A DNA stretch of 64,000 nucleotides from Escherichia coli (GCF_022846255.1 NZ_AP025682.1), one strand, 5' to 3'; numbered from the stretch's first letter, positions 1,372-63,411 are shown. The notes: generated by a model not told the origin, from the letters alone. Numbers and translations: made by a program.

Positions 1372-1477
1372 ATTCAAAATAGTGGCGAGCCCCCTGATTT
1401 CCTCTCACGAATAGCGTGTGACTCGTTTTATCTTTGCAGGGTCATCTCCACGTTCCAGCATGGCTTAGGCAAAATGC

Positions 1478-1596
1478 GCTTCGTTCATGCCGGATGCCAT
1501 GTGAACGCCTTACCAGGTCTACAAAATTTTTAAAGTTCAATATATTAAATGGGTTATGTAGACCTGATAAGCGTAGCGCATCAGGGTGCTTTGCGT
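1478..1596. repeat. REP/BIME-type extragenic palindromic repeats
   Basis: Inverted REP-like units (gccggatgc...gtgaacgcc...ggtctacaaa / tgtagacctgataagcg...gcatcagg) in the yjiR-rpnD intergenic gap. Confidence 0.6.
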
Positions 1597-1613
1597 TTGT
1601 CATCAGTCTCTGA

Positions 1614-2570: not shown

Positions 2571-3036
2571 GGCGATCCGTCACCTGTAGATAAGATGGCC
2601 CAACTTTAGCGACTAACAAAGCCATTCACACCTGGCTATTTCCTATTCCCCGAGGCGGTTTCCAGGCTATTTTTATTCTTCTGCAAACGATACATTTTTC
2701 CGGAAACAGGCTCGCATTTTACATTTCCTGTACCCGGCAGATATTCCCCTTTCCACCGCACTCTTTTGATTAACCGCAAATTTTAATTACACTTAAGGTG
2801 TATATTTTCTATGCAACCCATCAATTCAAGAGGTGTAATGTGCTGATGACTATTTGTAATCGTTATACATTCTGACCCGAAGTCAGAAGGTATTTCTCTG
2901 TCTGTGTGTTCACAGGCAGTGTGGTTGATTACATGAAATTCAGTACATTTGTCCTTCTCGCCTGCCTTTCGTCATTACCGACGGTATTGAATTTCGTTTT
3001 CCCCATTGGGGTTCTCCGGACAAGGAGTAGTTTGTT

Positions 3037-4269
3037 ATGCCACGTTTTTTTGCCCGCCATGCCGCCACGCTGTTTTTCCCGATGGCGTTGATTTTGTATG
3101 ACTTTGCTGCGTATCTGTCGACGGACCTGATCCAGCCAGGGATCATTAATGTGGTCCGTGATTTTAATGCCGATGTCAGTCTGGCCCCGGCTGCCGTCAG
3201 TCTCTATCTCGCTGGAGGCATGGCATTGCAGTGGCTGCTGGGGCCGCTTTCCGACAGGATTGGCCGCAGGCCGGTGCTGATTAACGGGGCGTTAATTTTT
3301 ACCCTTGCCTGCGCCGCGACAATGTTCACCACGTCAATGACACAATTTCTTATCGCGCGTGCAATTCAGGGCACCAGTATCTGTTTTATTGCCACCGTTG
3401 GTTATGTCACGGTGCAGGAGGCGTTCGGACAGACAAAAGGGATCAAGTTGATGGCGATTATCACCTCCATCGTACTGATTGCGCCGATTATCGGCCCGCT
3501 TTCCGGCGCAGCTCTGATGCACTTTATGCACTGGAAAGTCCTTTTTGCCATCATTGCGGTTATGGGTTTTATCTCATTTGTCGGCTTGCTGCTGGCGATG
3601 CCAGAGACGGTGAAGCGCGGCGCGGTTCCGTTTAGCGCCAAAAGCGTCTTGCGCGATTTTCGTAATGTCTTTTGCAATCGGCTGTTCCTCTTTGGCGCAG
3701 CAACCATCTCTTTAAGCTATATCCCGATGATGAGCTGGGTGGCTGTCTCGCCGGTGATCCTTATCGATGCAGGCGGCTTAACAACTTCGCAGTTCGCCTG
3801 GACACAGGTTCCGGTGTTCGGCGCGGTGATTGTCGCGAATGCCATCGTGGCGCGTTTCGTTAAAGATCCGACCGAACCGCGGTTTATCTGGCGTGCCGTA
3901 CCCCTTCAACTGGTCGGCCTCTCGCTGTTGATTATCGGCAATCTGCTGTCGCCGCACGTCTGGCTGTGGTCGGTGCTGGGCACCAGTCTGTATGCTTTCG
4001 GGATTGGTTTGATTTTCCCGACCTTATTCCGCTTTACGCTGTTTTCCAATAACTTACCGAAAGGGACCGTCTCCGCATCGCTAAATATGGTGATCCTGAT
4101 GGTGATGTCTGTCTCGGTCGAAATCGGCCGCTGGCTGTGGTTTAACGGCGGTCGCTTGCCGTTTCATCTGTTAGCCGTTTTAGCGGGCGTTATCGTCGTT
4201 TTCACCCTGGCGGGATTGCTCAATCGCGTGCGCCAGCATCAGGCAGCCGAGCTAGTGGAGGAGCAGTGA
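3037..4269 (+). CDS. mdtM: MFS multidrug efflux transporter
   Basis: 410-aa polytopic membrane protein with MFS features; synteny with yjiN. Confidence 0.9.
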
Positions 4270-4309
4270 TTTTTGCGCGATCCTGCCGTCAGGCTCTATT
4301 CTTAACGTT

Positions 4310-35269: not shown

Positions 35270-36043
35270 TCAGGCGTCGACTTTATCCAGCGGCCATGAA
35301 TCAAACAGATAGCCATCGAAATAGATGTCATCAACATTAGAGAACTCCAGCAAGCGCTGCTTCACATTCTCCAGATGCTGCCACATTGCCAGCTTCGCCG
35401 CTCGGGCATCTTTTTTGATTAACGCGGCGAGGATCTGTTTGTGATCGCCCAACCACTCTTTGCGATACAGGCTGTCATCCAGGTGGCTGTGCAACTGGAT
35501 CCACATTGGATTGTTTTCCCGCCACTGCCAGGACTGACGGAATAACTCCACCAGCATGCTGTTATGCGTTGCTTCGGCAATAGCGAGATGGAACTGCATG
35601 TCACCGCTTTCGCTGCTGCCCGGCGCGCTGGAAGCCAGTTCACGCTCTTCCAGTTGCAATGCCTGGCGCATTTTGACGATATCTTCGCGGGTAGCCTGCA
35701 GGGCGGCAAACTCGGCGATGTTACTTTCCAGTAACTGCCGCGCCTGTAACAGCTCAAAAGGACCGGCATCGTTGCAGACGTTGGCATCCGGACTGTCTGC
35801 GTTGTGGCTGCCTGAGCTATCAAGAACATAGATACCTGCACCCCGACGCACTTCCACCAGCCCTTTGATCTCCAGCATGATCAGCGCTTCACGTACCACC
35901 GTCCGCGTGACATCAAGCATTTCTGCAATTTCACGCTCCGGTGGCAGCCGTTCGCCAGGATTGTACGGCGTCTTTATGATCAGATCGCGGATCATCGCCC
36001 CGACTTCCTGGTAAGGTCTTTGCGCAGAGGTGGCAGATTTCAT
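35270..36043 (-). CDS. uxuR: GntR/FadR-family repressor of the uxu regulon
   Basis: 257-aa GntR-family HTH protein with FCD domain. Confidence 0.9.
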   Translation of the reverse strand: MKSATSAQRPYQEVGAMIRDLIIKTPYNPGERLPPEREIAEMLDVTRTVVREALIMLEIKGLVEVRRGAGIYVLDSSGSHNADSPDANVCNDAGPFELLQARQLLESNIAEFAALQATREDIVKMRQALQLEERELASSAPGSSESGDMQFHLAIAEATHNSMLVELFRQSWQWRENNPMWIQLHSHLDDSLYRKEWLGDHKQILAALIKKDARAAKLAMWQHLENVKQRLLEFSNVDDIYFDGYLFDSWPLDKVDA

Positions 36044-36114: not shown

Positions 36115-36257
36115 AACGGGCAATTTTACGGCACCCGTTAAGCTCAAACTATACCATTAGCACTGGATGTTGGCACGTACAGGTGGGCAAAAAAACGAAA
36201 ACTGGTCAACCAAATATTAGTTTGATTGACCAGTAAGTCTGTAGGGTAATCAGTTAG

Positions 36258-37718
36258 TTACAGCGCAGCCACACACTCGCGCGCACCGCGCTCACACAGC
36301 TGCTGATATGCCGCCGTCACCGCGCCGACAAAGTCGGCGTTCTGCGGCAGATCATCGGCAAAGATACCGCTCAGGCCCAGCAGTGCTTTCACGCGGTCTG
36401 CACCCTGATACTGCGCGTTGATCTTCTGGAACTCCGCCAGCATCGGGTCAACCACGTCAATGGCATTACCCTGCTCATCCACGCCCTGGGTGTAGCGCAT
36501 CCAGCCCGCCACGCCCAGCGCCAGGTGACGCCAGCTGCCGCCGTTTTGCAGGTGCAGACGCACAGGGTCCAGCAGACGCTGCGGTAACTTCTGGCTGCCG
36601 TCCATCGCAATCTGCCAGGTGCGGTGACGCAGAGACGGGTTGCTGAAACGCTCGATCAGCAGCGTCGCATAGGCGTTCAGGTCCGTACCTTCCGGCATCG
36701 ACAGCGTTGGCGCTTGTTCCTGCATCATCAGGGCAAAGGCCGCTTTGCGATAATCCGGATTAGTCATGGTGTCGGCAATAGTTTCATAGCCACCGAGGTA
36801 ACCGAGGTACGCCAGGAAAGAGTGGCTACCGTTCAGCATACGCAGCTTCATCATTTCGAACGGTACAACATCCGCAACAAACTGCGCGCCGACTTTATCC
36901 CAGTCCGGGCGACCATTAACGAAGTTATCTTCAATCACCCACTGACGGAACGGTTCGCAGGCAATGGCGCACGGGTCGTAAACACCCAGCTGGTCAGCAA
37001 TTTCCTGTAAGGTTTCTGGCGTCGCCGCCGGAACGATGCGGTCAACCATGGTGCACGGGAAGGTGACGTTTTCTTCAATCCATGCCGCCAGCTGTGGATC
37101 ACGCGCCTGAGCCAGCCCAAGAACGGCAACCTTCGCCACATGACCGTTTTCACGCACGTTGTCGCAGGACATCACCGTAAATGCTTTCAGCCCTTTTTCA
37201 CGACGCAGACGCAGGGCTTCTACGATGTAACCAATCGCGGACTTCGGCGCAGTCGGGTTTTCCAGATCGTGCTTAATCAGCGGATTATTGAGATCCAGCT
37301 GACCGCTTGCCGCATCGGCGCAATAACCTTTCTCTGTGACCGTCAGGGAGACAATCGCCGTCTGCGGACGCGCCATCGCGTTGAGAATACCTTCACAACC
37401 GTCGATTTCCGGATGCAGGGCTTCTTTCATTGAACCGATAATTTTCAGCTCGGTGCTTTCCGCGCCTTTTTCCGCCACGGTGTACAGCAGTTGCTGTTTT
37501 TTCAGGTTTTCGATCAGCACGCGGTCGTTGCCTGGCATCAGGTTAACTTCGCAGATACCCCAGTCGCTGTCGGTGCTTTCCAGCAGATGATGGGTGTACA
37601 GCGCCTGGTGCGCGCGGTGAAACGCCCCGCAACCGAGATGCACAATGCGTGATTCCAGACGAGAATGATCCCATGACGGGCGGGCAACCGGCAGATTGCT
37701 GTCAACAATAGTAGTCAT
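36258..37718 (-). CDS. uxuB: D-mannonate oxidoreductase
   Basis: 486-aa mannitol dehydrogenase-family protein. Confidence 0.9.
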   Translation of the reverse strand: MTTIVDSNLPVARPSWDHSRLESRIVHLGCGAFHRAHQALYTHHLLESTDSDWGICEVNLMPGNDRVLIENLKKQQLLYTVAEKGAESTELKIIGSMKEALHPEIDGCEGILNAMARPQTAIVSLTVTEKGYCADAASGQLDLNNPLIKHDLENPTAPKSAIGYIVEALRLRREKGLKAFTVMSCDNVRENGHVAKVAVLGLAQARDPQLAAWIEENVTFPCTMVDRIVPAATPETLQEIADQLGVYDPCAIACEPFRQWVIEDNFVNGRPDWDKVGAQFVADVVPFEMMKLRMLNGSHSFLAYLGYLGGYETIADTMTNPDYRKAAFALMMQEQAPTLSMPEGTDLNAYATLLIERFSNPSLRHRTWQIAMDGSQKLPQRLLDPVRLHLQNGGSWRHLALGVAGWMRYTQGVDEQGNAIDVVDPMLAEFQKINAQYQGADRVKALLGLSGIFADDLPQNADFVGAVTAAYQQLCERGARECVAAL

Positions 37719-37798: not shown

Positions 37799-38983
37799 TT
37801 AACGGCTAAAGAAAGCGCGCTGGATCGCCAGTTCGACACCGCGAACTTCGGCCAGGCCTTTCAGACGACCAATTGCGGAGTAACCTGGGTTGGTTTTCTT
37901 CTTCAGGTCGTCCAGCATCTGATGACCGTGGTCCGGACGCATCGGGATCAGGTCTTCTTTGCCTTCCGCTTTACGACGGTGTTCTTCTTCAACAATCGCT
38001 TTCACCACTTCGTACATATCAACGTCACCGTTCAGGTGCGCCGCTTCGTGGAAGGTTTTCGGGTTATCTTCACGCATGGTGGAGCGCAGATGGGTGAAGT
38101 AAATACGCGGACCGAACTGCTTGATCATATCAACCAGATCGTTGTCAGCACGCACGCCGTAGGAACCGGTGCACATGGTGAAACCGTTCGCCATGCTGTT
38201 TACGGTATCAACCATCCACTGCATATCTTCAATGGTGGAAACAATGCGCGGCAGGCCGAGGATCGGGCGCGGCGGATCGTCCGGGTGAACCGCCATACGC
38301 ACGCCAACTTCTTCAGCAACCGGAATAATCGCTTTCAGGAAGACAGCGAAGTTTTCGCGCAGTTTGGCTTTGTCGATATCTTTGTACAGCTCCAGGTGCT
38401 TACGGAACTGGTCGAGGGTATACCCTTCTTCCGCACCTGGCAGACCGGCAATGATGTTACGGGTCAGACGCGCTTTGTCTTCGTCGCTCATGGTGGCGAA
38501 GCGTTCAGCTGCCTGAGCAATTTCTTCTTCGGTGTAATCCGCTTCCGCGCCTGGACGCTTCAGGATATGCATTTCGAATGCAGCGAATTCGATCTGGTCG
38601 AAGCGCAGAGCTTTGGAGCCGTCTGGCAGCACGTATTCGAGGTCAGTACGGGTCCAGTCGAGCACCGGCATGAAGTTGTAGCACACGGTGCGAATGCCGC
38701 ACTGCGCCAGGTTGCGCAGAGTCTGCTGATAGTTAGCGATCCACTGCTCATAGTTGCCAGTGTGGGTTTTGATATCTTCGTGAATTGGCACGCTTTCTAC
38801 GACAGACCACACCAGGCCTGCGTCTTCAACGATCGCCTTGCGTTTGAGGATCTCTTCTACGGACCATACTTCGCCGTTCGGGATATGGTGCAGCGCGGTA
38901 ACCACGCCAGTTGCGCCCGCCTGACGGACATCAGCTAAAGAAACCGGATCGTTTGGGCCGTACCAGCGCCAGGTCTGTTCCAT
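37799..38983 (-). CDS. uxuA: Mannonate dehydratase
   Basis: Start placed at ATG 38981-38983 ([10 protein letters not shown]...) with an agagga SD; the track ORF extends 10 codons further upstream. Confidence 0.9.
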
Positions 38984-39160: not shown

Positions 39161-39252
39161 ATCACAAGAATTTTACTCTCACGGTTGTTGCTGCAAATTG
39201 CAGCAAAGGGTAATCGATGGTTATTGATCAGAGGATGTGACATTCATCGCAA

Positions 39253-39267
39253 TAATGGTTGACCAAT
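39253..39267. promoter_or_regulatory. Candidate UxuR/ExuR operator (AATGGTTGACCAATT) upstream of the gntP remnant
   Basis: Second TGGT-N-ACCA palindrome about 60 bp upstream of the gntP start codon. Confidence 0.4.
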
Positions 39268-39322
39268 TTGCATAACATGTCGCCCAAAATAACAACGGTT
39301 CAACCAGGTAAGGTAAAACGTT

Positions 39323-39539
39323 ATGCATGTGCTTAACATTCTCTGGGTGGTATTCGGCATTGGCCTGATGCTGGTACTGACAATGACCGCAGGTTCAGAC
39401 ACATTCCCTACATTAGCAATGCCTCTTAGATTACTTTGACCTGTCAGTAAAAGACACGTTGAAAACCTGGGGTCTGCTGGAGCTGGTCAACTCCGTGGTT
39501 GGGCTGATTATTGTGCTGATTATTAGCATGGTAGCGTAA
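39323..39539 (+). pseudogene. gntP: gntP (gluconate/fructuronate permease) deletion remnant
   Basis: ATG at 39323 encodes a permease-like N-terminus (MHVLNILWVVFGIGLMLVL...) that stops after 38 codons. From about 39432 a different frame encodes a GntP-family C-terminus ([35 protein letters not shown], stop at 39537-39539). About 1.1 kb of the expected ~1.3-kb gene is absent. Confidence 0.75.
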
Positions 39540-39559
39540 AAGAGCACCTGAGCCTGCCA

Positions 39560-39650
39560 TTGGCAGGCTCTGTTCGGATTGTCGGTAAAGTGCGCTTTGT
39601 TTATGCCAGATGCGACGCTGACGCGTCTTATCTGGCCTACAAAGGGCTAA
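39560..39650. repeat. REP element between the gntP remnant and fimH
   Basis: gcctgccattggcaggctc hairpin followed by ...tgccagatgcgacgctgacgcgtcttatctggcctacaaa, a REP-type palindromic unit. Confidence 0.6.
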
Positions 39651-39711
39651 CGTGCAGGTTTTAGCTTCAGGTAATATTGCGTACCTGCATTAGCAATGCC
39701 CTGTGATTTCT

Positions 39712-40614
39712 TTATTGATAAACAAAAGTCACGCCAATAATCGATTGCACATTCCCTGCAGTCACCTGCCCTCCGGTACGTGCGTAATTTGCCGTTAATC
39801 CCAGACTTACCGCCGAAGTCCCTACTGCTCCTAACGATACCGTGTTATTCGCTGGAATAATCGTACCGTTGCGCGTCAACTGTACGCCGACGCCCTGCGC
39901 GGGTGAAAACGACGCGGTATTGGTGAAAATCGAGTTGCCCGCATCTGCGGTTGTGCCGGATAGGTAATACCCCAGGTTTTGGCTTTTCGCACAATAAACG
40001 GTAAGAGGAATCGGCACTGAACCAGGGTAGTCCGGCAGAGTAACGGTGACATCACGAGCAGAAACATCACAGCCGCCAGTGGGCACCACCACATCATTAT
40101 TGGCGTAAATATTCCACACAAACTGGAAATCATCGCTGTTATAGTTGTTGGTCTGTCGCAAAATAAGCACGGCAATTAATGAGCCAGCTTTAATCGCCAC
40201 TCCCCCCGCACTGCTCACCGGCGTCAAATAAAGCGCCACCGGCCACGGCTTATCCGTTCTCGAATTATAAACAACCCGCGGCGTTTCGCTGGTAGTAGGG
40301 AAAGGATAGCTACTGCCATTATATTTTACGGTCCCGGAAAAACTAGATAACACACCGCCATAAGCCGAACCTCGTTGCAGTGTGACATAGTCTGTAATGG
40401 TTTCTGGGTAATCGTTATGGCAAAAGATTTGCGTCGAAAGATCTACGACCAGGTTTTGCCCCACATTCACGGCAGGCGCAAGGTTTACATAAACATTGGC
40501 GCTGCCACCGCCAATAGGGATTGCGGTACCATTGGCGGTTTTACAGGCGAATGACCAGGCATTTACCGACCAGCCCATCAGCAGTACAGCAAACAGGGTA
40601 ATAACTCGTTTCAT
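39712..40614 (-). CDS. fimH: Type 1 fimbrial tip adhesin (mannose-binding)
   Basis: Signal peptide MKRVITLFAVLLMGWSVNAWS followed by mature FACKTANGTAIPIGGG...; last gene of the fim operon. Confidence 0.95.
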   Translation of the reverse strand: MKRVITLFAVLLMGWSVNAWSFACKTANGTAIPIGGGSANVYVNLAPAVNVGQNLVVDLSTQIFCHNDYPETITDYVTLQRGSAYGGVLSSFSGTVKYNGSSYPFPTTSETPRVVYNSRTDKPWPVALYLTPVSSAGGVAIKAGSLIAVLILRQTNNYNSDDFQFVWNIYANNDVVVPTGGCDVSARDVTVTLPDYPGSVPIPLTVYCAKSQNLGYYLSGTTADAGNSIFTNTASFSPAQGVGVQLTRNGTIIPANNTVSLGAVGTSAVSLGLTANYARTGGQVTAGNVQSIIGVTFVYQ

Positions 40615-46431: not shown

Positions 46432-46745
46432 TTGGGGCCATTTTGACTCATAGAGGAAAGCATCGCGCACAAACTTTTTCAGTTTATTTGTTGGCTTAAT
46501 GTTCTATGGTTATCTTTATTTGCAGTTTTTTATATTGCATGAGGTGGTTTTTGGAGAGAAGAATGAGGAAGTTGCGTCGAGCTACAGAAACGTTAGCTTT
46601 ACATATAGCGGAGGTGATGTGAAATTAATTTACAAGAGAAATAATTTACATATCAAACAGTTAGATGATTTTTGTCGTTTTTTAATATTTTTATGCTTGA
46701 GAAAAAATACGTAACTTATTTATGATATAGACAGTTTGGCCCCAA
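46432..46745. promoter_or_regulatory. fimS: fimS invertible element (314 bp) flanked by 9-bp inverted repeats TTGGGGCCA, carrying the fimA promoter; orientation as assembled appears phase-OFF
   Basis: IRs ttggggcca at 46432-46440 and tggccccaa at 46737-46745. The best sigma-70 promoter inside (TTGAGA 46697-46702, 18-bp spacer, TATGAT 46721-46726) is on the + strand and reads toward fimE, away from fimA. Confidence 0.8.
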
Positions 46746-54958: not shown

Positions 54959-57073
54959 TCAATCAGCCACTAATAGCGGACTAGGGATACCAGATGATGA
55001 AACAAACAGCCCTTTTACGGCACGGGTTGCAGCCACATGCAGTAACGCGCGCTCATTAAATAATGCATCACGCTGTTCAACGGGATCATCGGATGCTAAT
55101 GCTTTTATTTCCGGCACAACGCCTTCGTTAATCCCCACCAGGAACACATACTGGAACTCAAGCCCTTTAATACGGTGCATCGTTGCAACTCGCACGCCTG
55201 GGCGTTCATCGCTGTCACCGCTATCATTGCCTAAATTAAATGTCTCAATTCCGGCGTCATTGAGTGCTGATGCGTAGCGGTCGCAAGCATGTTTAGTACG
55301 CGCAGTAATGCAGATATCCTGAGAACGAACCTGACTCGCCAGCAATGCCTGAATTTGCTTGACGAGTGTTGCAGCCTCTTCTTTGAAATCTGCCGCATGC
55401 GTAATCATGGGCTTTTCCCCGTGCAGTAATGACAAATAATCATTACTGGTATCCGCTTCGCCATCGAGGTTATCAACCTTCACACCAGTTAACAGCCCAA
55501 CAGCAAATTGACGCGTCTCTTCTGTGGTCCGATAGTTAATCTTCAATTTTTTACTGCGACGACCACGGACGTTAATACCACACTGACCAAGAACGACCTT
55601 ATTGCGATAAATACGCTGATGCCCATCCCCGACAATAAACAGATCGTTGGGCGACTCGGGAACCAGGCTGCGAATAAGAGTAAATGCCGGGGCACCGATA
55701 TCTTGAGCTTCATCGACGACAATACTGCTATAAGGTAGTTGGACCTGCTTTTCTTTAAACAGAACAATAGCCTCATGCATGGCATCGCCCATTTCGCGCA
55801 GTTTGGCACGCGCCATTTGTGCTCTGAATTCTTCGAAAACTGGCCAGATTTTCGCCCGTTGAATACGGGATAACGCTGTACCACGTCCAACCCGGCTGAC
55901 TTTGAGGTATTCCTCCCGGGTGTAAACCGCATTTGGCTGGACAACGCGTTGCCACTCTTCAGCATAGAAATTGTCAGGTAGCCCCAGTTCGGCAGGTGCC
56001 TGCTGCAAGGCATAGTTCCAGCATTTACGTCGCCCTTCATCGCTGTCGTATACCACGCGGAAATCATAACCGTGGCGTTTTAGTTGGTCGCTCATCCAGG
56101 CATCAATGTTAACGACGTCAATACGCGCCATCTCTTCTCGCGTACACAACCGCTGGAGATTAGCGCGAATATCTGCCGCCAGGTTACGCGTAAAGGTCGT
56201 GAAAAGTACCTTCTTACCGGGTTTATCTGCCAGACGCTGAGATAACCACCGCGCACGGTGCATTGCAACAACCGTTTTCCCTGTACCTGCACCGCCCAGT
56301 ACTCGTACCGGACCATTAGCGGGCGACTCCACCAGTTTTCGCTGGCTCGGATGCAGAAATACACGCCATTTTTCTAAAGGCGCATTAAGCATCTGCAACA
56401 GCTCCTGTTCATTTTCAACGACATGGAAGCGACGTTTACTTCGTTCAATCGCCTCCATAAAGTCGTTGGTATCAACAGGCTCGTCACGATGATCGTTAAA
56501 CTCTTCCAGCACTTCCTGGTAATCCAGCCCTTCTGCCAGCCAATGCAGGGGTTCCCAGGCTTCTGCTGGCATTATGCTTTCAAGTTGATTAAGCCCGGCT
56601 TCATCGGTAAGCGCCATCACCTGATCAATAAAGACAGGCGGCACACCCAGGGCCAGAATCTGTTCCGCGCTGTAAGCTGCGAAGAGTTTCGGTTTATCTA
56701 GCACCGTTTCCGCCGCCGGTTTGATATAGCTAATATCAATAACCTGAATTGCGCCGGTAACCGGGTGAATTGAACAATCATGCCGCCGCGCCCAGTCGTA
56801 TGCTTCGTCGTGTTTATCCACCCACATCAGCATATACAGGGCACCCTGTTCAGGTTTCAGAACAATGCCGCGATAAGTTTGATCGATTCGCACCGAATGG
56901 ACATTTTTACTGCGCGCATCGTGGATCTTTTCATAGTTAAGTCCATTACTGGTCGGGTCCTGACGGAATTTGGAGATGAATTCCTGCACCTTTTTTTGCT
57001 GTGCTTTTGGGATCCGCGCGAATGCGCCCAGAAAACCATCAGAAAGTGCCACCTTGGGCGTTTGCACCGTCAT
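54959..57073 (-). CDS. UvrD/Rep-family (SF1) helicase, 704 aa, with an uncharacterised ~230-aa N-terminal domain
   Basis: Walker A GGAGTGKT (aa 260-267), motif II IVVDEAQDIG, motif III-like VGDGHQRIYR, C-terminal TMHRIKGLEFQYVFLVG. Its start ATG overlaps the stop of the 2113-aa gene by 4 nt (57070-57073). Confidence 0.8.
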   Translation of the reverse strand: MTVQTPKVALSDGFLGAFARIPKAQQKKVQEFISKFRQDPTSNGLNYEKIHDARSKNVHSVRIDQTYRGIVLKPEQGALYMLMWVDKHDEAYDWARRHDCSIHPVTGAIQVIDISYIKPAAETVLDKPKLFAAYSAEQILALGVPPVFIDQVMALTDEAGLNQLESIMPAEAWEPLHWLAEGLDYQEVLEEFNDHRDEPVDTNDFMEAIERSKRRFHVVENEQELLQMLNAPLEKWRVFLHPSQRKLVESPANGPVRVLGGAGTGKTVVAMHRARWLSQRLADKPGKKVLFTTFTRNLAADIRANLQRLCTREEMARIDVVNIDAWMSDQLKRHGYDFRVVYDSDEGRRKCWNYALQQAPAELGLPDNFYAEEWQRVVQPNAVYTREEYLKVSRVGRGTALSRIQRAKIWPVFEEFRAQMARAKLREMGDAMHEAIVLFKEKQVQLPYSSIVVDEAQDIGAPAFTLIRSLVPESPNDLFIVGDGHQRIYRNKVVLGQCGINVRGRRSKKLKINYRTTEETRQFAVGLLTGVKVDNLDGEADTSNDYLSLLHGEKPMITHAADFKEEAATLVKQIQALLASQVRSQDICITARTKHACDRYASALNDAGIETFNLGNDSGDSDERPGVRVATMHRIKGLEFQYVFLVGINEGVVPEIKALASDDPVEQRDALFNERALLHVAATRAVKGLFVSSSGIPSPLLVAD

Positions 57074-60000
57074 TTGTCACCTCCGGACAGATGTTGCAAT
57101 GTATTTTCGTCAATTGGCCCGAATGCTACGTGCCAACCCCTGGTTGTGAATAATGGAATAAATTCTTGATTATCAATAATCAATGCCCATTTTTGTGATG
57201 GCCAGGCGAGATCGGCTTCCGCAATAATTTCCCCCTCATCATTTTGCAATTCGTAGCCGAGAGTCGGCGCAGAGAGAGAATGAGACTGAAGCAACGCGAT
57301 CTCTTCAGCGCTTAATAAGCCAAACTCAATAATCTCAGCCCAACTCTCATCAGTCTCTGGTACTGCCTCTGGCGTTGCCGAAACTTTAGTGTCAACGCTT
57401 TCCTGCGGTAAATGCACGGCTTTACGGCTGGTAAAGGTTATATCCGGCAGGAACTGTAACAGGTTTACCAGTCGCCAGAAGCCATTGAGTCCCGCTTCAT
57501 AACCGTCATCCTGCGTATAGCGATCGTCAAAACAGATATGCAAACGCAGCCAGCTGCGCATTTGTGCGACACTGGTCGTCGGTTTAATGGCTTGTTGTGG
57601 CAACACCGAAGCCAGCTCAATAAATTGCTGCGATGAGTTACAGCTATCGAGTAAACCACCAAAGACAAACGGTTCGTCTGGCAAAAGCTCTGCTAGCCGC
57701 CAGGCTGGCGCGTTTTCCTGCATTTCATAGGCATACTTTTGTTTCGTTCCCGCGTCCTGTGACTTCTTCACATCCAACCACACCCAGGCATGTGCAGCAG
57801 CCATTTTCTGCCATAACTGCGTTCTTCCTCCCGGATCGGCGAGATAATCCAGCAGCAGTGCAAAACTGTTGCGTTCCCGGAACGACGCTTCAAGGGCCGC
57901 AAAGTTGGTATCGTGAAACAGGTTATAAAACTTAGGCTGTTTCATATCCGGGTTATGCCCAAGCCCCAGGACATCCTGAACATGTTTAAGCCCAGGCTCT
58001 TTGAGATCGGCCCACGTGACTGTCCACACCCAGAAATTATCGCTATCCCGAATCGCCTGGCGTTTTTGCACATCCTCTGCGACGCTATTTTTGTGAAACG
58101 CAAAGCCATCAAGGAAAATAGCTACCGGTTTAATGGCATCAGACTGCATAAGCGGATATAGCACGTAATCCGGGCGACAAGGGATCCCCACCGCCTCTTT
58201 AGCGCCTAAATCCACCTGAGCTTTAAGATGCCAGCTCATCATCGGTTCGCTGCGGGTGTTAATAATCCACCCAGCGCCCTGATGCGCGTAACTGCGACTG
58301 ACAATCAGGTTTTTATTTTCTTGCAGGCAGCTAATAAACCGTTTTTCCAGCTCACTGCCCATCATGGCTTCGAGGGAAATGTTTTTGATGGAATCAATTA
58401 CCCGTATCGAATCTCTTGCCTGCAAAATTTTCGCCAGCAAGAGACGCGCCTGATCGCGGGAGACATACTTCATGCGCCCACGGTCACGGTAAGCGTAAAC
58501 GCAACGATAACAACCATCTTTATGCGTATCATGGTTGCAACTGCATTCCACTATCGCCTGATAGGCCAGTTCAAGTAATTTCAGCAAATTGTCGGGAGTG
58601 CGCATCAGCTCTTTAAGAGAACCAGTTCCCCCCGGGACGGTATCGTAAATCACCAGATACTGCCGCCAGGATTCGCCTTCATTTTCCGGCTCGCGGTACA
58701 CAACGCCTTTCAGGTGATCGACATTCCCCTTGAAGTAATGTTTAAGACCTAGCTGGATCGCCGCCCCAAGAGAAGCCTCCACGACACGGTCATTACTGTA
58801 ACTGCTTACCGGGAGCAGAATACGCAACGCTTCTGACTCCAGCTGGCGATAGAGATAGAGATAATCTTCGAACTTCGCCTTTTCGGGTTCCGTGCGATAT
58901 TTGCAGCTCAAATCATGACGGGGTTCATGATCGCGAGGACGCTGTACCATGCCGCACCCGAGGCAAACTTTAAACCCGGTTCGCTTCTTCGCTTCTCCGG
59001 CAATCATCAACTCATTGGCATCATCCGCCATTTTGCCGAAGTTGATATCCCGCAGGGTGACTTTGCTTAAAAATTCAAAACCAAACGGAACTTCGCCTTC
59101 CTCAATCGCGTATGCCGCCGATACATCTTCTTTTTCGAAACTAACCAATAGCTGACGCTGGAAGAAAGCAGGTTCACGGCTGTCGCTCTCGTCGCTGATC
59201 TGGCTATCACGTGCGCTGGCGCGGGCATACACCTGGCGAAGTTTCAGCAGCGTGGTTTTTTGTCCGGCGTCGGCCCACCCCGGTGTGCCACATTTCGGGC
59301 AATATTTATGCTGGTCGCCCGTCTGGTCGATATTTTCGCTGTAGTTACAGTGGCTACAGATACGCCAGTTCTCCGGCTCAGAGACCTTCAGGTCTATCTG
59401 CTCAATTTCAACTTTATGCCCACCGGCATAGAAATTATTCAGCGGAGCCAGCTCAGCCAGCGCCGTTGATGCCGGGCGTTCATATTCGAAAGTGGTGTTT
59501 TGATATTCACGTGCTTCCCCGCCTTCTTTACGCCGCCAGAGCACAGAACGTAACGTAATACCGGCTTCCGGGAAGGCGTAGTTAGGCAGCAGACCTTCAT
59601 CCGTGAGGAAATTCAGCGTCTGCTTATTGTTGATTTGATTGACCAGCGCCATCAGCGCCTGCCGTTCTGAAGTTAACTCGCGCATATCGCTGTCAAAGTT
59701 TTGATCGCGCGGCGCGTTCTCCAGCTTATCGATACTGCGCTTGAGTTTATCGATGCGTGAACGCAGAGATTTGCGATCTTCCACCAGCAGTTTTAACGCC
59801 TCTTCGATACGCTGCACCAGAGAGCGTTGTCCTGGCGCGCCCTGAAGATAAGACAACAACTGTTGGCGAGTTTCTGCGGCAAGATCGGGGAAGATCGCCG
59901 TAAATTGTGCAGCAATCTCCGCATGATGCTGTTCGATATATCTCAGTAAGTTATACGGAAAACCCGATTTACGCCCGAACTCCAGCTCATCCAGCATCTG

Positions 60001-63000
60001 TTTGACGTTTTTACAGATAGCGGATTCTGGTACACCGGTTTTCACCCAGTTATCCATACAAAAAGCTGCCAGCTGGCGTTCGAGAATAGCCGTTGCATTG
60101 AGGAAGACGCCAGGAGCCTGCACCTGGCCCTGCATCATCTCCAGTGGTTCTTCAAAGAAAAACTGATCGTGCGGGTTCCCTTCTGCCACGGTAATGTTTA
60201 ACGCGTTACCATCTTTACGACCGGCGCGACCAATACGCTGCAAGTAGTTGGCCTGAGCAGGTGGGACAGAACAGAGTAAAACGGTGGAAAGATCCCCAAC
60301 GTCGATACCCATCTCCAGCGTCGGTGTTGCCGACAACAGGTTGATATTCCACGGTTGGTTGCCGCGGTAGAACGATTTTTCGGTGGCTTCGCGATCTTCA
60401 CGGCTAAGCAGCCCCGTGTGTTCTGCGCCCTGCACGCGCGCGATGTCCATGTTCTCCCAACGCCAGGTCGCCGTATTGTCGACTTCCTGGTAACGACCTT
60501 CACAACGTAAAGAGAGACAAGGCGCATTACGCCACTGCCACCCTTGATCGGCCGGAGCCCGGACAACCTCACGGCAACATGAGCAATTAAGCTGAACGAC
60601 GTCACGGCTCACCACCAGCGCCGAAGGCACCAGTCCCCAGGCTTCACGCCCTTTGGTGTCAAAATCTTTTACTACTCCGGCTATTTTCAACGCCGTAAAC
60701 AGGCGTCGTAACACCGTTTCCGCAACGCTACTGATAAACAGATTATTGCCGTTACTCAGCGTGCGATTGATCCAATGCTGATACCAACTGGGGTTAGACT
60801 TCGCGCCAATCAGGCGATGGAAACCATTAATTTTTTCAAACGACGCGTAAGCCGGTTTACGCGTTTTCGGACCGATAGAAGGCATATAGCGCGAGGTACG
60901 CTCTTTTTGCGTCATCATAAAGGTCGTGCCATCACGGCGATAACTTTCGAACGCCGGATGCATAACGGCCCCGGCCTGGCGTTGATACCAGATAACCCCC
61001 AGCGCCAGGTGCGCTACCTGCTCGACGCTCACACCGGACATCTCATCACCCAGCTCTTCACAAAGCTGTTGATGCAGGGCGGTAATTGCCGGATTAAAGC
61101 GATCTTTATCCACTCCAGCAACGGCATAACCGGTGGCTTCCAGCGTACGTCCGATACGCGCGCGCAGGGTGAATTCGCTGTACACCTCCCAGTCGAGGCG
61201 CAGGGAAACCAGCTCCGGCAGATCGGAGTTCTCCGCCAGTTTGCCTTCATTTTTCAGTGTCTGATAATCATTCAGCCACTGCATATTTGGTGCGATGAAG
61301 TTCGCTGCAAAATGAGCATCGTCCGGTGAACGTTCACGCGTTTGTTGGCAAACACGCGCCGCGAACGCATCCAGCGGTAATGTCTCTTTTTCGCCAAGAA
61401 CACTGGCGATTTGCCCACGAATCATCAGCGGCCAGGTTCGGGCAGTAAAAAAGCTGGCACGATGCGCGGCGTCTTGTACCGAGTCAGAAAACGTAATCAG
61501 CTTTTTATGTTCGTTGAACTGGCTGCCATAAAGCTGGTGAATCATCACCGCCGACAGACTGGCAGCCCGTGACCCCAGAATCGAAATCCCCTGTTTGCTG
61601 TTGCAGTACGGGCATTCATTAGCAAACTCCAGCTCGTCCTTACGCTCTTTGAGCATATCTGGGATCAGTACCTGCAACAGCTCTGTATGACCACAATGTC
61701 CACACTGGACGCTGGACTGTCGGTTCAGTTTCAGGCAGGTAGGGCACAGTTTCTGGTGTGCGCCACTGACCGCTTTTTCGTTGTTATCCGGGAAAGCAAG
61801 GACGATGGAGCGCCCTTTTTCAAAGAACTGGCGATAAATGCCGTCGAGGTCTGTTTCCAGCTGAACGCTTTGCCCATGACGCAGGCTGGCCCAGCCGGTT
61901 GCGTGGCAGTCACGGCAGTGGATAACCGGCAAATAGTGTTCGCGATCTTCCACCGCCACATCATCGGCAAACACCAGTCTCGGTGTTTTCGCCACGCTGG
62001 CGACCAGACGACGCATCTCACGAAGCCACAACTGGGAGCGCAGTTGCACAAACGGCAGCACCGGGCGCGCTTTCTTCGCCTGGAGACGTTTTTGCCGATC
62101 GTGGTCCGTTTCCGGTACTTCGAGACGTGCCTGCGCGATCAGCGCCAGAATGCTTTGCAGCACGCGTCGGGCATGGTCGGCGCTTTCTGCCAGCATGACC
62201 TGGAGATTTTCCAGACACTCTCGTTCAGAGAGGATCCCGCCTTGCAGATCATGGAGTAAGACATGCATCACGCTGTGGCGGCGTAACAGTGACCCCAGCG
62301 CAATACGCTTTTCACGCCCGTCGTCGCTCTCCAGATCGTCCGGGAGTTGCAAGTCGCTGTCGGGGAACCACAAAGGGATTTGTCCGTTGAGATACGCCAC
62401 CGGGGTAGCGTAACTCTGCGGGTCCAGGGCCGAAGCGACCTCCGGCCCCGGATACTGACTGTACGCAATGGCGTAATCCTGCAAGTACTCCGCTGCCGTG
62501 TAGCGATCTTCGCGAATAACGGCGTCATCGGTAAACGGCTGGTCAAAGATTGTTTTTGCGTAATCGAGCAGTTGCCCCAGTTCGTCGCCGACGGTCGCTG
62601 ATGTCCCGACGCAGGCGAATCGTTGGTTATCTACACCTATGTGATGCTTCAGACGTCGCACCAGACAGGCCAGATCCGACCCTTGCGCGCCATCAAACGT
62701 ATGCAATTCATCCACGACCAGGTAACGCAATGAACCGGGCTGGTTGTAACGCCAGAGCGGCTGATCGCCAGGGCGCATCAGCAGGTAGTCGAGCATTTTG
62801 TAGTTGGTCAACAGGATGTCCGGCGGGCTTTCGCGCAGCGTGTGCTTACAGGTAATGACCTTTTCTGCCGACATTTTTTTGCTGGGTTCGATTTCGCTGT
62901 CGCCGACAAACAGGCCGACGGTCACCTTGCCATGCAGTTGTGGATCGCTGGCGATGGTTTTGGCGAAACGGCTGGCCTGATCGGTTGCCAGGGCGTTCAT

Positions 63001-63411
63001 CGGGTAGATGATAATCGCTTTAACCCCGGCTTGTGACGCGCCCGCGCAGTGGTTGAGCAGCGGGAACATAAAACATTCTGTTTTACCGGAGCCGGTACCG
63101 GTAGCGACCAGTGTCGGCTGTGGCGCGTCGCTTCCCAGACGCTGAAATGCCCGGGCCTGATGCGCGTGCGGCGGGAACGGCAGCGTCAGATTAGGGAAGA
63201 AATTCAGCGGTAAGTCACTTTTACAAAACGGCAACTGGGCGGAAAGGTATGGTCCTTTCAGCAGCGTTTCAGGCTGGGCCAGAAATTGCTCCAGCATTGA
63301 GACATTATCGTTATTCTCGCCGTTAAACAGCGGGCTGTTTAGCGGGAACGCCGCCCGTAAAAAGGCGGCAACGCTGTCGGCGACCTGCCGACTGACAACG
63401 GATGGCAGCAT
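57070..63411 (-). CDS. Giant (2113 aa) DEAH-box SF2 helicase with Zn-ribbon insertions, DUF1998-like Cys cluster and a Vsr/DUF559-like endonuclease motif; DruE-like (Druantia) candidate
   Basis: Walker A VATGTGSGKT (nt 63079-63105), motif II VVDELH (62701-62718), motif VI QRIGRAGR (60217-60240), several CxxC pairs, CSCNHDTHKDGCYRC cluster (about 58501-58545), and VAIFLDGFAFHK...RQAIRD...VWTVTW (about 58090-58140). Confidence 0.8.
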   Translation of the reverse strand: MLPSVVSRQVADSVAAFLRAAFPLNSPLFNGENNDNVSMLEQFLAQPETLLKGPYLSAQLPFCKSDLPLNFFPNLTLPFPPHAHQARAFQRLGSDAPQPTLVATGTGSGKTECFMFPLLNHCAGASQAGVKAIIIYPMNALATDQASRFAKTIASDPQLHGKVTVGLFVGDSEIEPSKKMSAEKVITCKHTLRESPPDILLTNYKMLDYLLMRPGDQPLWRYNQPGSLRYLVVDELHTFDGAQGSDLACLVRRLKHHIGVDNQRFACVGTSATVGDELGQLLDYAKTIFDQPFTDDAVIREDRYTAAEYLQDYAIAYSQYPGPEVASALDPQSYATPVAYLNGQIPLWFPDSDLQLPDDLESDDGREKRIALGSLLRRHSVMHVLLHDLQGGILSERECLENLQVMLAESADHARRVLQSILALIAQARLEVPETDHDRQKRLQAKKARPVLPFVQLRSQLWLREMRRLVASVAKTPRLVFADDVAVEDREHYLPVIHCRDCHATGWASLRHGQSVQLETDLDGIYRQFFEKGRSIVLAFPDNNEKAVSGAHQKLCPTCLKLNRQSSVQCGHCGHTELLQVLIPDMLKERKDELEFANECPYCNSKQGISILGSRAASLSAVMIHQLYGSQFNEHKKLITFSDSVQDAAHRASFFTARTWPLMIRGQIASVLGEKETLPLDAFAARVCQQTRERSPDDAHFAANFIAPNMQWLNDYQTLKNEGKLAENSDLPELVSLRLDWEVYSEFTLRARIGRTLEATGYAVAGVDKDRFNPAITALHQQLCEELGDEMSGVSVEQVAHLALGVIWYQRQAGAVMHPAFESYRRDGTTFMMTQKERTSRYMPSIGPKTRKPAYASFEKINGFHRLIGAKSNPSWYQHWINRTLSNGNNLFISSVAETVLRRLFTALKIAGVVKDFDTKGREAWGLVPSALVVSRDVVQLNCSCCREVVRAPADQGWQWRNAPCLSLRCEGRYQEVDNTATWRWENMDIARVQGAEHTGLLSREDREATEKSFYRGNQPWNINLLSATPTLEMGIDVGDLSTVLLCSVPPAQANYLQRIGRAGRKDGNALNITVAEGNPHDQFFFEEPLEMMQGQVQAPGVFLNATAILERQLAAFCMDNWVKTGVPESAICKNVKQMLDELEFGRKSGFPYNLLRYIEQHHAEIAAQFTAIFPDLAAETRQQLLSYLQGAPGQRSLVQRIEEALKLLVEDRKSLRSRIDKLKRSIDKLENAPRDQNFDSDMRELTSERQALMALVNQINNKQTLNFLTDEGLLPNYAFPEAGITLRSVLWRRKEGGEAREYQNTTFEYERPASTALAELAPLNNFYAGGHKVEIEQIDLKVSEPENWRICSHCNYSENIDQTGDQHKYCPKCGTPGWADAGQKTTLLKLRQVYARASARDSQISDESDSREPAFFQRQLLVSFEKEDVSAAYAIEEGEVPFGFEFLSKVTLRDINFGKMADDANELMIAGEAKKRTGFKVCLGCGMVQRPRDHEPRHDLSCKYRTEPEKAKFEDYLYLYRQLESEALRILLPVSSYSNDRVVEASLGAAIQLGLKHYFKGNVDHLKGVVYREPENEGESWRQYLVIYDTVPGGTGSLKELMRTPDNLLKLLELAYQAIVECSCNHDTHKDGCYRCVYAYRDRGRMKYVSRDQARLLLAKILQARDSIRVIDSIKNISLEAMMGSELEKRFISCLQENKNLIVSRSYAHQGAGWIINTRSEPMMSWHLKAQVDLGAKEAVGIPCRPDYVLYPLMQSDAIKPVAIFLDGFAFHKNSVAEDVQKRQAIRDSDNFWVWTVTWADLKEPGLKHVQDVLGLGHNPDMKQPKFYNLFHDTNFAALEASFRERNSFALLLDYLADPGGRTQLWQKMAAAHAWVWLDVKKSQDAGTKQKYAYEMQENAPAWRLAELLPDEPFVFGGLLDSCNSSQQFIELASVLPQQAIKPTTSVAQMRSWLRLHICFDDRYTQDDGYEAGLNGFWRLVNLLQFLPDITFTSRKAVHLPQESVDTKVSATPEAVPETDESWAEIIEFGLLSAEEIALLQSHSLSAPTLGYELQNDEGEIIAEADLAWPSQKWALIIDNQEFIPLFTTRGWHVAFGPIDENTLQHLSGGDK

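What the first reader, a model, noticed from the sequence alone, without database searches (positions are those of the whole stretch)
39323..39700. gntP reduced to a frameshifted stub with its promoter retained; 13-bp direct repeat at the junction
Only about 217 bp of gntP remain: a 38-codon 5' stub and an out-of-frame 3' tail encoding the last roughly 35 residues. The upstream region with a candidate UxuR/ExuR operator is intact. The 13-mer CATTAGCAATGCC occurs at the apparent deletion junction (39411-39423) and again at 39688-39700 just inside the fimH 3' flank, which may be a footprint of the rearrangement or coincidence. Loss of this permease would alter uptake of its sugar-acid substrate in this lineage.
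Basis: seen in the sequence. Interest (0 to 1): 0.45.

Follow-up and report, generated by a model that had tools for sequence, protein, structure and literature searches.

The report
Old, common gntP deletion remnant
This E. coli strain carries a dead 217-base remnant of the fructuronate-uptake gene gntP, made by an ordinary deletion between two 11-base repeats and shared by about one in six sequenced E. coli; the only odd detail is a 48-base heavily mutated patch beside the junction.

Summary
Between uxuA and fimH, only 217 nt of gntP remain (39323-39539), and neither half can make a permease.

The large breakpoint is not at the 13-mer. It is an 11-bp direct repeat, TGCTGGTACTG, at gene nt 47-57 and 1160-1170 in intact alleles. 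One copy survives at 39369-39379, and 1113 bp (371 codons) are gone.

Two smaller deletions follow, of 1 bp and 13 bp. They lie in and at the edge of a 48-nt patch (39380-39427) that differs from every intact allele at 13 positions. The flanking 58 nt and 112 nt differ at 0 and 1 positions.

The fimH-side copy of the 13-mer is native, because strains with intact gntP have it. The stub copy arose by substitutions. Together with a second nearby match (39400-39412 vs 39748-60), it fits short-range templated mutation (P about 2e-4, post hoc).

The same junction and patch occur in about 850 of 5,426 complete E. coli genomes. None of these appears to hold a second gntP copy, and the allele is not a misassembly.

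The retained operator region is shared with the intact uxuAB operon.

Verdict: an ordinary, widespread gene-loss allele with a mildly curious junction scar.

The parts
37799..38983 (-). uxuA (mannonate dehydratase), intact, transcribed divergently from the gntP remnant
   Evidence: 394-aa ORF; annotated at the same coordinates in the collinear STEC299 genome
39146..39163 (.). UxuR/ExuR-like palindromic box 1 in the uxuA-gntP spacer
   Evidence: Pattern match with 3 mismatches; identical to K-12; forms an inverted repeat with box 2 (I2). The consensus used was recalled from memory.
39252..39269 (.). UxuR/ExuR-like palindromic box 2
   Evidence: Pattern match with 2 mismatches. The single UxuR SELEX site lies in the gntP/uxuA spacer (PMC5934670).
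39323..39380 (+). Native 5' end of gntP (gene nt 1-58, codons 1-19)
   Evidence: Contiguous alignment to K-12 ends at 39380; identical to the intact allele of UPEC957C
39323..39439 (+). 38-codon stub ORF: 19 native codons followed by 19 frameshifted or mutated codons
   Evidence: The exact peptide is listed in 14,414 index blocks of public assemblies; the 10 loci read showed the uxuB-uxuA-stub-fimH context.
39369..39379 (+). Retained single copy of the 11-bp direct repeat TGCTGGTACTG; this is the junction of the 1113-bp deletion
   Evidence: The repeat lies at K-12 gene nt 47-57 and 1160-1170 (L001 2970-2980 and 4083-4093). The spacing is 1113 bp, or 371 codons.
39380..39427 (+). Hyper-diverged patch homologous to gntP nt 1171-1219. 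It carries 11 transitions, 2 transversions and a 1-nt deletion (between 39406 and 39407). A 13-nt deletion (TCTGGTTGTTCAA) lies at its 3' edge (39427|39428).
   Evidence: It is the best local match to the locus in the correct register (score 18; shuffles averaged 10.9, with a maximum of 17).
39400..39412 (+). Part of the patch matching the fimH 3' coding end (12 of 13 nt)
   Evidence: the repeat finder family D2; exact 10-mer
39407..39423 (+).
   Evidence: the repeat finder family D1
39428..39539 (+). Native 3' tail of gntP (gene nt 1233-1344, residues 413-447 plus stop), out of frame with the ATG
   Evidence: 1 difference in 112 nt from K-12 and KL53; tblastn 100% over residues 413-447
39550..39570 (+). 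Perfect 10-bp stem hairpin just after the gntP stop codon (native transcript-end structure)
   Evidence: I6; present in intact alleles
39599..39637 (.). REP-type intergenic repeat
   Evidence: Sub-threshold partial match to Rfam naRNA4, a REP-derived family; conserved in all alleles
39684..39700 (+). Native 17-mer CCTGCATTAGCAATGCC just 3' of the fimH stop; candidate donor template; contains the second 13-mer at 39688-39700
   Evidence: Identical in KL53, which has an intact gntP. K-12, XDL and ECCWS199 have CCAGCATTAGCAATGTC.
39748..39760 (+). CACATTCCCTGCA within the 3' end of fimH; second candidate donor template
   Evidence: Conserved in K-12, KL53, XDL and E. albertii.
39712..40614 (-). 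fimH, intact

Best explanation
The region is a non-functional remnant of the fructuronate/gluconate permease gene gntP.

Shown:
- Intact alleles carry an 11-bp direct repeat, TGCTGGTACTG, at gene nt 47-57 and 1160-1170.
- The remnant keeps one copy and lacks the 1113 bp (371 codons) between them.
- Two further deletions, of 1 nt and 13 nt, break the frame.
- The 48 nt immediately 3' of the junction carry 13 substitutions. The 58 nt before the junction carry none, and the 112 nt after the patch carry one.

Inferred:
- The large deletion arose once, by slipped misalignment or annealing between the two repeats.
- The mutated patch is mainly a scar of the same event, or of a closely linked replication or repair event. 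In that event the nascent strand briefly copied two nearby look-alike sequences on the same strand: the 3' end of fimH (39748-60) and its flank (39684-700). This would have converted gntP codons 398-406 into a 23-of-24 chimera of the two.
It is not a breakpoint repeat.
- The allele has since spread and recombined across E. coli, and its flanks have been exchanged with intact haplotypes.

The operator-bearing spacer is retained because it controls the still-intact uxuAB operon. Predicted consequence: no uptake of external fructuronate, with the internal glucuronate-to-fructuronate pathway unaffected.
For: - Alignment to K-12 defines the endpoints, the repeat and both small deletions. The arithmetic is 57 + 174 - 14 = 217 nt.
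- The same junction, patch and indels occur in 853 of 5,426 complete genomes, in two allele classes. This points to a single origin.
- Genome counts partition: 4,538 have the gene interior, about 850 have the remnant and about 39 have neither.
- The uxuA-gntP arrangement with an intact gene is conserved in E. albertii, another Escherichia sp., Citrobacter and Klebsiella. The remnant is therefore the derived state.
- The patch breaks the motif LATAAGSNTLTHINDASFW, which is identical in all the closer orthologues retrieved (Escherichia to Gilliamella) and nearly so across all 80 loci. No orthologue is closer to the patch than about 72%.
- Flanks are identical to extant intact haplotypes: KL53 on the 3' side and UPEC957C on the 5' side.
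- The two top direct-repeat families in the 1-kb region both link the patch to the fimH end.
- Random-mutation simulations give P about 0.003 for the 13-mer alone. Nine of 14 changes create matches of 8 nt or longer to the neighbourhood, P about 0.009. At least 23 nt covered by 10-mers has P about 1.8e-4.
- uxuR, uxuB and uxuA are intact. The UxuR site lies in this spacer (PMC5934670).
Against: - The first 20 nt of the patch carry 7 changes with no convincing donor. A greedy whole-patch mosaic parse is no better than random.
- The simulation statistics were chosen after the repeats had been seen.
- No clean-junction intermediate was found, so the order of deletion and patch mutation is not established.
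- Differences that arose after the two allele classes split also concentrate in or next to the patch (5 of 6). That fits continued accumulation or shielding from recombination, not one burst alone.
- HH45 has nearly the same deletion with an unmutated patch region. This shows the deletion and the patch mutations can be separate, unless that allele is independent or an assembly artefact.
- The phenotype was not tested.
Confidence: 0.7

Rival explanations
1. Slow decay plus recombination shielding. The deletion allele is very old. All of it decays neutrally, but gene conversion from intact alleles keeps overwriting the flanks. Only the bases too close to the junction to be converted keep the accumulated changes. 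On this view the fimH-side matches are coincidence.
For: - The tail and downstream flank are identical to an intact haplotype (KL53), and the 5' stub is identical to another (UPEC957C).
- uxuA protein alleles are shared between remnant and intact haplotypes.
- Five of the 6 substitutions separating the two remnant classes lie in 39384-39434, against 1 in the tail.
Against: - Shielding should act on both sides of the junction, yet the 5' side has 0 changes in 58 nt against 13 in 48 nt.
- About 25% change at first and second codon positions on one branch implies an age beyond the E. coli-E. albertii split, where third-position divergence is 0.30 for two branches.
- No full-length decayed intermediate was found in 5,426 genomes.
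- The matches to nearby donors have P about 2e-4 under random mutation.
Confidence: 0.17
2. Import of foreign DNA. The patch is a fragment of a diverged gntP homologue (from another species, a paralogue or a plasmid copy). It would have been joined on one side by homology and on the other by the 11-bp microhomology, i.e. homology-facilitated illegitimate recombination.
For: - The layout is asymmetric, as this mechanism predicts: microhomology junction, then a diverged segment, then perfect homology.
- Plasmid-borne gntP fragments about 80% identical exist in E. coli.
Against: - None of 80 orthologues or paralogues is closer to the patch than E. coli's own gene, at 72% or less.
- The patch destroys residues that are invariant (Asn, Asn, Asp) or all but invariant (His) in the family across the loci retrieved, and it carries a frameshift.
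- The plasmid fragment is truncated by IS26 within the region homologous to the patch (about 21 nt in) and does not match it.
- E. coli chromosomal paralogues (gntT, gntU, idnT, dsdX and others) were not compared at the DNA level.
Confidence: 0.06
3. Artefact or duplicate. The remnant is a misassembly, or a spare fragment alongside an intact gntP elsewhere in the genome.
For: None found. HH45 shows that odd junctions can occur in single assemblies.
Against: - An identical junction occurs in about 850 independently assembled complete genomes, and the exact stub ORF is listed in 14,414 index blocks of public assemblies, the 10 places read showing the same context.
- Genome counts partition exactly into interior-positive and remnant-positive sets.
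- No other gntP-like sequence lies in the window.
Confidence: 0.01

Closest known systems
RecA-independent deletion between short direct repeats (slipped misalignment or single-strand annealing). The classic examples are the lacI deletions of Albertini et al. 1982 and the work of Bzymek and Lovett 2001; both are cited from memory.
   Same: An 11-bp perfect repeat lies at both endpoints in intact alleles. One copy is retained, and the length lost equals the repeat spacing (1113 bp).
   Different: The sequence immediately 3' of the junction is not native. It carries 13 substitutions and two small deletions, which simple slippage does not produce.
Short-range template-switch (templated) mutation clusters. 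The general phenomenon is described in PMC9435742 and PMC8604942. Quasipalindrome and imperfect-repeat correction in E. coli (Ripley; Dutra and Lovett) is cited from memory.
   Same: A dense cluster of changes turns a stretch into a near-copy (23 of 24 nt) of sequences a few hundred bp away. The two donors overlap by a 6-nt microhomology.
   Different: Both donors are direct rather than inverted repeats. Only half of the patch is explained. The event is inferred from one ancient allele, not observed.
Microhomology-mediated break-induced replication / fork stalling and template switching, which produces complex rearrangements (Hastings et al. 2009, cited from memory)
   Same: A deletion with a microhomology junction, plus short templated segments from nearby sequence at the junction.
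   Different: The scale is tiny, with segments of 10-17 nt. The patch stays in register with the native gene, so it looks like correction of native sequence rather than inserted filler.
Intact E. coli gntP. Its role as fructuronate transporter and member of the UxuR regulon comes from Bates Utz et al. 2004, cited through the reference lists of PMC12288454 and PMC5934670; that paper was not readable here.
   Same: Same locus, same divergent spacer with UxuR boxes, and the same first 58 and last 112 nt.
   Different: 371 codons are missing and the rest is frameshifted, so no permease can be made. Intact alleles encode a nearly invariant protein: 0-1 amino-acid differences despite up to 5% nucleotide divergence.

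Membership tests
Functional GntP-family permease gene | Full-length ORF of about 447 codons | tested here: not met
   Only residues 1-19 (tblastn 1-21) and 413-447 are detectable. The longest ORF is 38 codons.
Functional GntP-family permease gene | Conserved C-terminal motif LATAAGSNTLTH(I/V)NDA(S/A)FW intact | tested here: not met
   The motif is identical in all the closer orthologues and nearly so across the 80 loci retrieved. The patch has 8 replacements, including His to Tyr, Asn to Ser and Asp to Asn, plus a frameshift and loss of the FWLF codons.
Functional GntP-family permease gene | Located divergently from uxuA, with UxuR/ExuR boxes in the spacer | tested here: met
   PMC5934670
Deletion between short direct repeats | Perfect direct repeat present at both endpoints in the undeleted allele | tested here: met
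   TGCTGGTACTG lies at K-12 gene nt 47-57 and 1160-1170, and also in KL53, XDL and UPEC957C. O104:H4, E69 and E. albertii have GTG in the 3' copy.
Deletion between short direct repeats | One repeat copy retained; length lost equals the repeat spacing | tested here: met
   A single copy at 39369-39379; 1113 bp missing
Deletion between short direct repeats | Sequence on both sides of the junction otherwise native | tested here: not met
   The 5' side has 0 changes in 58 nt. The 3' side has 13 changes in 48 nt plus two small deletions.
Mobile-element or rearrangement footprint (the 13-mer as a duplicated target or breakpoint repeat) | Repeat copies sit at the rearrangement breakpoints | tested here: not met
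   The large junction ends 31 bp upstream of the stub copy. The other copy lies in unrearranged native flank.
Mobile-element or rearrangement footprint (the 13-mer as a duplicated target or breakpoint repeat) | Repeat absent from the unrearranged allele | tested here: not met
   KL53, with an intact gntP, has the identical fimH-side 17-mer. The DNA between the copies is the native tail, the REP element and the flank.
Short-range templated mutation cluster | Several changes clustered within tens of bp | tested here: met
   14 changes in 48 nt, against 0-1 in the adjacent 58 and 112 nt
Short-range templated mutation cluster | A nearby donor whose sequence equals the mutated product, beyond chance | tested here: inconclusive
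   Positions 39400-39423 match two donors 277 and 348 bp away at 23 of 24 nt. P is about 1.8e-4 under random mutation, but the statistic was chosen post hoc. The first 20 nt of the patch are unexplained, and the whole-patch parse is not significant.
Short-range templated mutation cluster | Ancestral (pre-event) allele available, to show the changes arose together | tested here: not met
   No clean-junction or partial-patch allele was found in 5,426 genomes. HH45 is ambiguous.
Homeologous import from a diverged homologue | A donor gene closer to the patch than the resident gene | tested here: not met
   The best of 80 loci reaches 34 of 47 nt, no better than E. coli's own gntP. E. coli chromosomal paralogues were not tested.

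The most novel reading that the evidence does not exclude
The 48-nt patch is a natural fossil of a multi-step template-switching event in E. coli. It would consist of one microhomology jump that deleted 1.1 kb, followed by two short copies from look-alike sequences at the end of fimH. The scar then survived in about 16% of the species, because bases this close to a deletion junction cannot be overwritten by recombination with intact alleles.
Probability: 0.4. Interest if true: 0.35.

Novelty: new member of a known kind. Interest (0 to 1): 0.22.

Why it matters
The practical importance is modest. The allele is a simple, easily typed presence/absence polymorphism for a sugar-acid transporter in about one in six E. 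coli. Carriers include the well-known strains UM146 and NC101, and several isolates whose names and genome sizes suggest Shiga-toxin-producing or enterotoxigenic E. coli. It predicts a difference in the use of free fructuronate in the gut.

Where the gene is kept, its protein is almost invariant. The contrast between strict conservation and complete loss is a small but clean case for studying niche-dependent gene loss.

The junction scar would be a rare natural record of templated, clustered mutation in a bacterium, if that reading holds. It does not open a new biological question.

Tried and rejected
1. The 13-mer as a breakpoint repeat or target duplication. Rejected by alignment to intact loci.
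2. The patch as an import from an orthologue. I scanned 100,044 species' genomes with GntP and kept the best 80 loci; none was closer than 72%.
3. The patch from the plasmid-borne gntP-like fragment. That fragment is truncated by IS26 and unrelated to the patch.
4. A full-length decayed intermediate allele in E. coli. A chimeric query found none.
5. A clean-junction allele. A synthetic-junction query found only HH45, which has a poly-G filler.
6. The whole patch as a mosaic of local pieces. A greedy parse gave 8 segments, the same as the random expectation.
7. Testing the remnant in other Escherichia species. 
8. Bates Utz et al. 2004 could not be read.
9. The promoter scan found nothing on the gntP strand above shuffle expectation.
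10. Rfam found only a sub-threshold REP-derived match.

Full report
**Context**

The window is E. coli chromosome. Reading left to right it holds:
- uxuR (35270-36043, minus strand);
- uxuB (36258-37718, minus);
- uxuA (37799-38983, minus);
- a short interval;
- fimH (39712-40614, minus), followed by the rest of the fim operon.

The window is collinear with strain STEC299 from 4270 to 50011 at 98.7% identity, and the gene coordinates coincide. In K-12 the interval between uxuA and fimH holds the 1344-bp gene gntP, transcribed divergently from uxuA.

**Checking the observation**

Alignment with K-12 gives three collinear blocks.
- Window 38900-39380 matches K-12 through gntP nt 58, at 97% identity.
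- Window 39428-39570 matches from gntP nt 1233 through the stop codon and the terminal hairpin.
- Window 39587-39800 matches the fimH flank.

The remnant is therefore 39323-39539, or 217 nt. The 38-codon ORF at 39323-39439 contains only 19 native codons. The tail encodes residues 413-447 in another frame.

The 13-mer CATTAGCAATGCC occurs exactly twice in the window, at the stated coordinates. Their placement relative to the breakpoint is not.

**Anatomy of the lesion**

Intact alleles carry TGCTGGTACTG twice, at gene nt 47-57 and 1160-1170. The remnant has one copy, at 39369-39379. The spacing is 1113 bp, exactly 371 codons.

The 48 nt after the repeat (39380-39427) are homologous, in register, to gene nt 1171-1219. 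The local alignment scores 18, against a shuffle mean of 10.9 and maximum of 17. This stretch nevertheless differs from intact alleles in three ways:
- 11 transitions and 2 transversions;
- a 1-nt deletion between 39406 and 39407;
- a 13-nt deletion (TCTGGTTGTTCAA) at its 3' edge.

The arithmetic closes: 57 + 174 - 14 = 217.

The neighbouring sequence is almost unchanged. The 58 nt before the junction are identical to an intact allele, UPEC957C. The 112-nt tail and the whole flank as far as 39897 differ from another intact haplotype, KL53, at one base.

**Is the patch foreign?**

I retrieved gntP relatives from 80 species. The peptide encoded at this position, LATAAGSNTLTHINDASFW, is identical in all the closer orthologues, from Escherichia to Gilliamella. 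It is nearly identical across phyla.

The patch carries eight replacements, several at positions that never or almost never vary in the retrieved set. No orthologue is closer to the patch than about 72%, which is no better than E. coli's own gene.

A plasmid-borne gntP-like fragment is truncated by IS26 within the region homologous to the patch and is unrelated to it. No full-length allele carrying the patch exists in 5,426 complete genomes.

The patch is therefore a mutated derivative of the resident gene, not a piece of a working homologue. Chromosomal paralogues were not compared at the DNA level.

**The 13-mer**

The fimH-side copy is native. KL53, with an intact gntP, has the identical 17-mer CCTGCATTAGCAATGCC. 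K-12 and XDL have CCAGCATTAGCAATGTC.

At the stub site, intact alleles read CCCACATTAACGATGC(A/C). Three transitions turned this into CCTACATTAGCAATGCC.

An unbiased repeat search of the 1-kb region returns, as its two best direct-repeat families:
- 39407-39423 against 39684-39700 (16 of 17 nt);
- 39400-39412 against 39748-39760, inside the 3' end of fimH (12 of 13 nt).

The single mismatch in both is the same base, 39410. The other allele class has G there, as both donors do. Positions 39400-39423 are thus a 23-of-24 chimera of two sequences lying 277 and 348 bp downstream on the same strand, overlapping at CCTGCA.

I simulated random mutation of the native 49-mer, using the same numbers of transitions, transversions and one deletion.
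- An exact match of 13 nt or longer within +-500 bp arose in 0.3% of trials.
- Nine of the 14 changes create matches of 8 nt or longer to the neighbourhood. The null mean is 1.9, giving P about 0.009.
- Coverage of at least 23 nt by 10-mers arose in 0.018% of trials.

These statistics were chosen after the repeats had been seen. In addition, a whole-patch mosaic parse is no better than random. I therefore treat templating as likely for half of the patch and unproven for the rest.

**Population picture**

The same junction, patch and both small deletions occur in 853 of 5,426 complete E. coli genomes. They fall into two allele classes.
- The window type is found in 155 genomes, including UM146, NC101, NGF1 and STEC299.
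- A second type is found in 671 genomes. Going by strain names, sources and genome sizes, many are Shiga-toxin-producing, enterotoxigenic or animal isolates. This type has a further 12-bp slippage deletion in the tail and a few extra substitutions.

Shared complex features imply a single origin.

The gene interior is present in 4,538 genomes, and about 39 genomes have neither form. The sets therefore partition, and carriers of the remnant have no second copy. The exact 38-residue stub is listed in 14,414 index blocks of public assemblies. The ten loci read all showed the same gene neighbourhood. Misassembly is excluded.

The arrangement of an intact gntP next to uxuA is conserved in E. albertii, another Escherichia species, Citrobacter and Klebsiella. 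The remnant is therefore the derived state.

**How old, and why only one side?**

Third-position divergence at gntP is as follows:

| Comparison | Third-position divergence |
|---|---|
| Among common E. coli alleles | 3-8% |
| K-12 to the most divergent E. coli allele seen | 15% |
| K-12 to E. albertii | 30% |

The patch shows about 25% change at first and second codon positions, all on a single branch. As neutral decay, that would require an age beyond the E. albertii split.

Recombination clearly replaces the flanks. They are identical to intact haplotypes, and uxuA protein alleles are shared between the remnant and intact forms. Bases close to a deletion junction should be shielded from such replacement.

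Shielding may explain why 5 of the 6 substitutions separating the two remnant classes lie in 39384-39434. But shielding should act on both sides of the junction, and the 5' side has no changes at all.

I therefore favour a localised burst tied to the deletion or to its repair, followed by ordinary decay.

One genome, HH45, has almost the same deletion with an unmutated patch region and a 21-nt poly-G filler at the junction. It may be an independent event at the same repeats, or an assembly artefact. I could not tell which.

**Function**

uxuR, uxuB and uxuA are intact. Two UxuR/ExuR-like boxes lie in the spacer (the consensus was recalled from memory). They are essentially identical to those of K-12.

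SELEX places the single UxuR site of K-12 in the gntP/uxuA spacer (PMC5934670). The 'retained promoter' region is therefore the control region of a working operon.

GntP is reported to be the fructuronate transporter. That report (Bates Utz et al. 2004) is cited within PMC12288454 and PMC5934670 but was not readable here. From established pathway knowledge, uxuAB are still needed for glucuronate catabolism through fructuronate made inside the cell.

Loss of GntP should therefore remove only the uptake of external fructuronate, and a minor route for gluconate. This is inference and was not tested.

**Comparison with known kinds, and verdict**

This is a pseudogene made by deletion between short direct repeats, which is a textbook mechanism. 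RefSeq already flags the tail as an incomplete pseudo-CDS. I found no paper describing the allele.

The junction scar resembles short-range template-switch mutation clusters (PMC9435742, PMC8604942). It differs in using direct rather than inverted donors.

Verdict: the finding is real, ordinary and widespread. Interest is low, with a modest mechanistic curiosity attached.

Noticed in passing
window 39571-39586 (compare L001 4299-4383, L003 2162-2244): The window lacks a roughly 70-bp GC-rich palindromic intergenic element (…CCCCTCGCCCCTCCGGGGAGAGGGTTAGGGTGAGGGG…) that K-12, XDL and the second remnant class have between the gntP hairpin and the REP element. KL53, with an intact gntP, also lacks it, so this is an independent insertion/deletion polymorphism.
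   Followed up: partly
L103 (E. coli HH45, NZ_CP116411.1) 1224-1330: A different gntP deletion allele: gene nt 1-60, then the filler GAGTCCGGGGGGGGGGGGGGC, then native sequence from nt 1171 onward with no patch mutations. The right-hand endpoint coincides exactly with the end of the 3' repeat. It could be an independent event at the same hotspot or a poly-G assembly artefact.
   Followed up: partly
window 39499-39522: A tandem 12-bp near-repeat, TTGGGCTGATTA / TTGTGCTGATTA, lies in the gntP tail. One unit is deleted in the second remnant class (L003, L005, L006), a typical slippage event in a gene that is already dead.
   Followed up: yes
window 54959-63411, minus strand: Two adjacent large genes. 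One is a 2113-aa helicase matching Druantia DruE models (E = 4e-104). The other is a 704-aa UvrD/GajB-like helicase. Together they are probably an anti-phage defence module beyond the fim/nanC region.
   Followed up: partly
window ~14000-34500 (by collinearity with STEC299, L102): The region corresponds to the GimA-type island between hypT and iraD, carrying ibeA, nhaC, gcl-hyi, glycerol/dihydroxyacetone genes and a ptsP paralogue. This suggests an extraintestinal-pathogenic-type (B2/F-like) background. The ORFs in the window itself were not individually checked.
   Followed up: partly
window 46432-46440 and 46737-46745: The 9-bp inverted repeats TTGGGGCCA of the fim invertible switch are present between fimE and fimA. 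The orientation (ON or OFF) in this assembly was not determined.
   Followed up: no
L001, L008, L009, L010, L011, L104 (intact gntP alleles): Intact E. coli gntP alleles differ by up to about 5% in DNA yet encode identical or nearly identical proteins (0-1 amino-acid differences). This indicates very strong purifying selection where the gene is kept, in contrast to its complete loss in about 16% of genomes.
   Followed up: partly
locus list (genome contigs): Among Escherichia species, only E. coli, E. albertii and one unnamed species returned an intact GntP. Representatives of E. fergusonii, E. marmotae, E. ruysiae and E. whittamii did not appear. They may lack the gene or carry a remnant; this could not be checked.
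   Followed up: no
L091 (plasmid NZ_CP133813.1) 2357-2590: A gntP-like fragment about 80% identical to K-12 gntP sits on E. coli plasmids (32 plasmid places matched). It is cut off by an IS26 end next to a higBA toxin-antitoxin pair.
   Followed up: partly
window 1-4270: The first 4 kb are not collinear with STEC299, apart from a 0.9-kb piece. In STEC299 this region holds restriction and defence genes (hsdS, symE, GmrSD-like). It looks like a variable defence island and was not examined.
   Followed up: no
window 36199-36216: A third UxuR/ExuR-like palindrome lies between uxuB and uxuR, consistent with autoregulation of uxuR.
   Followed up: no
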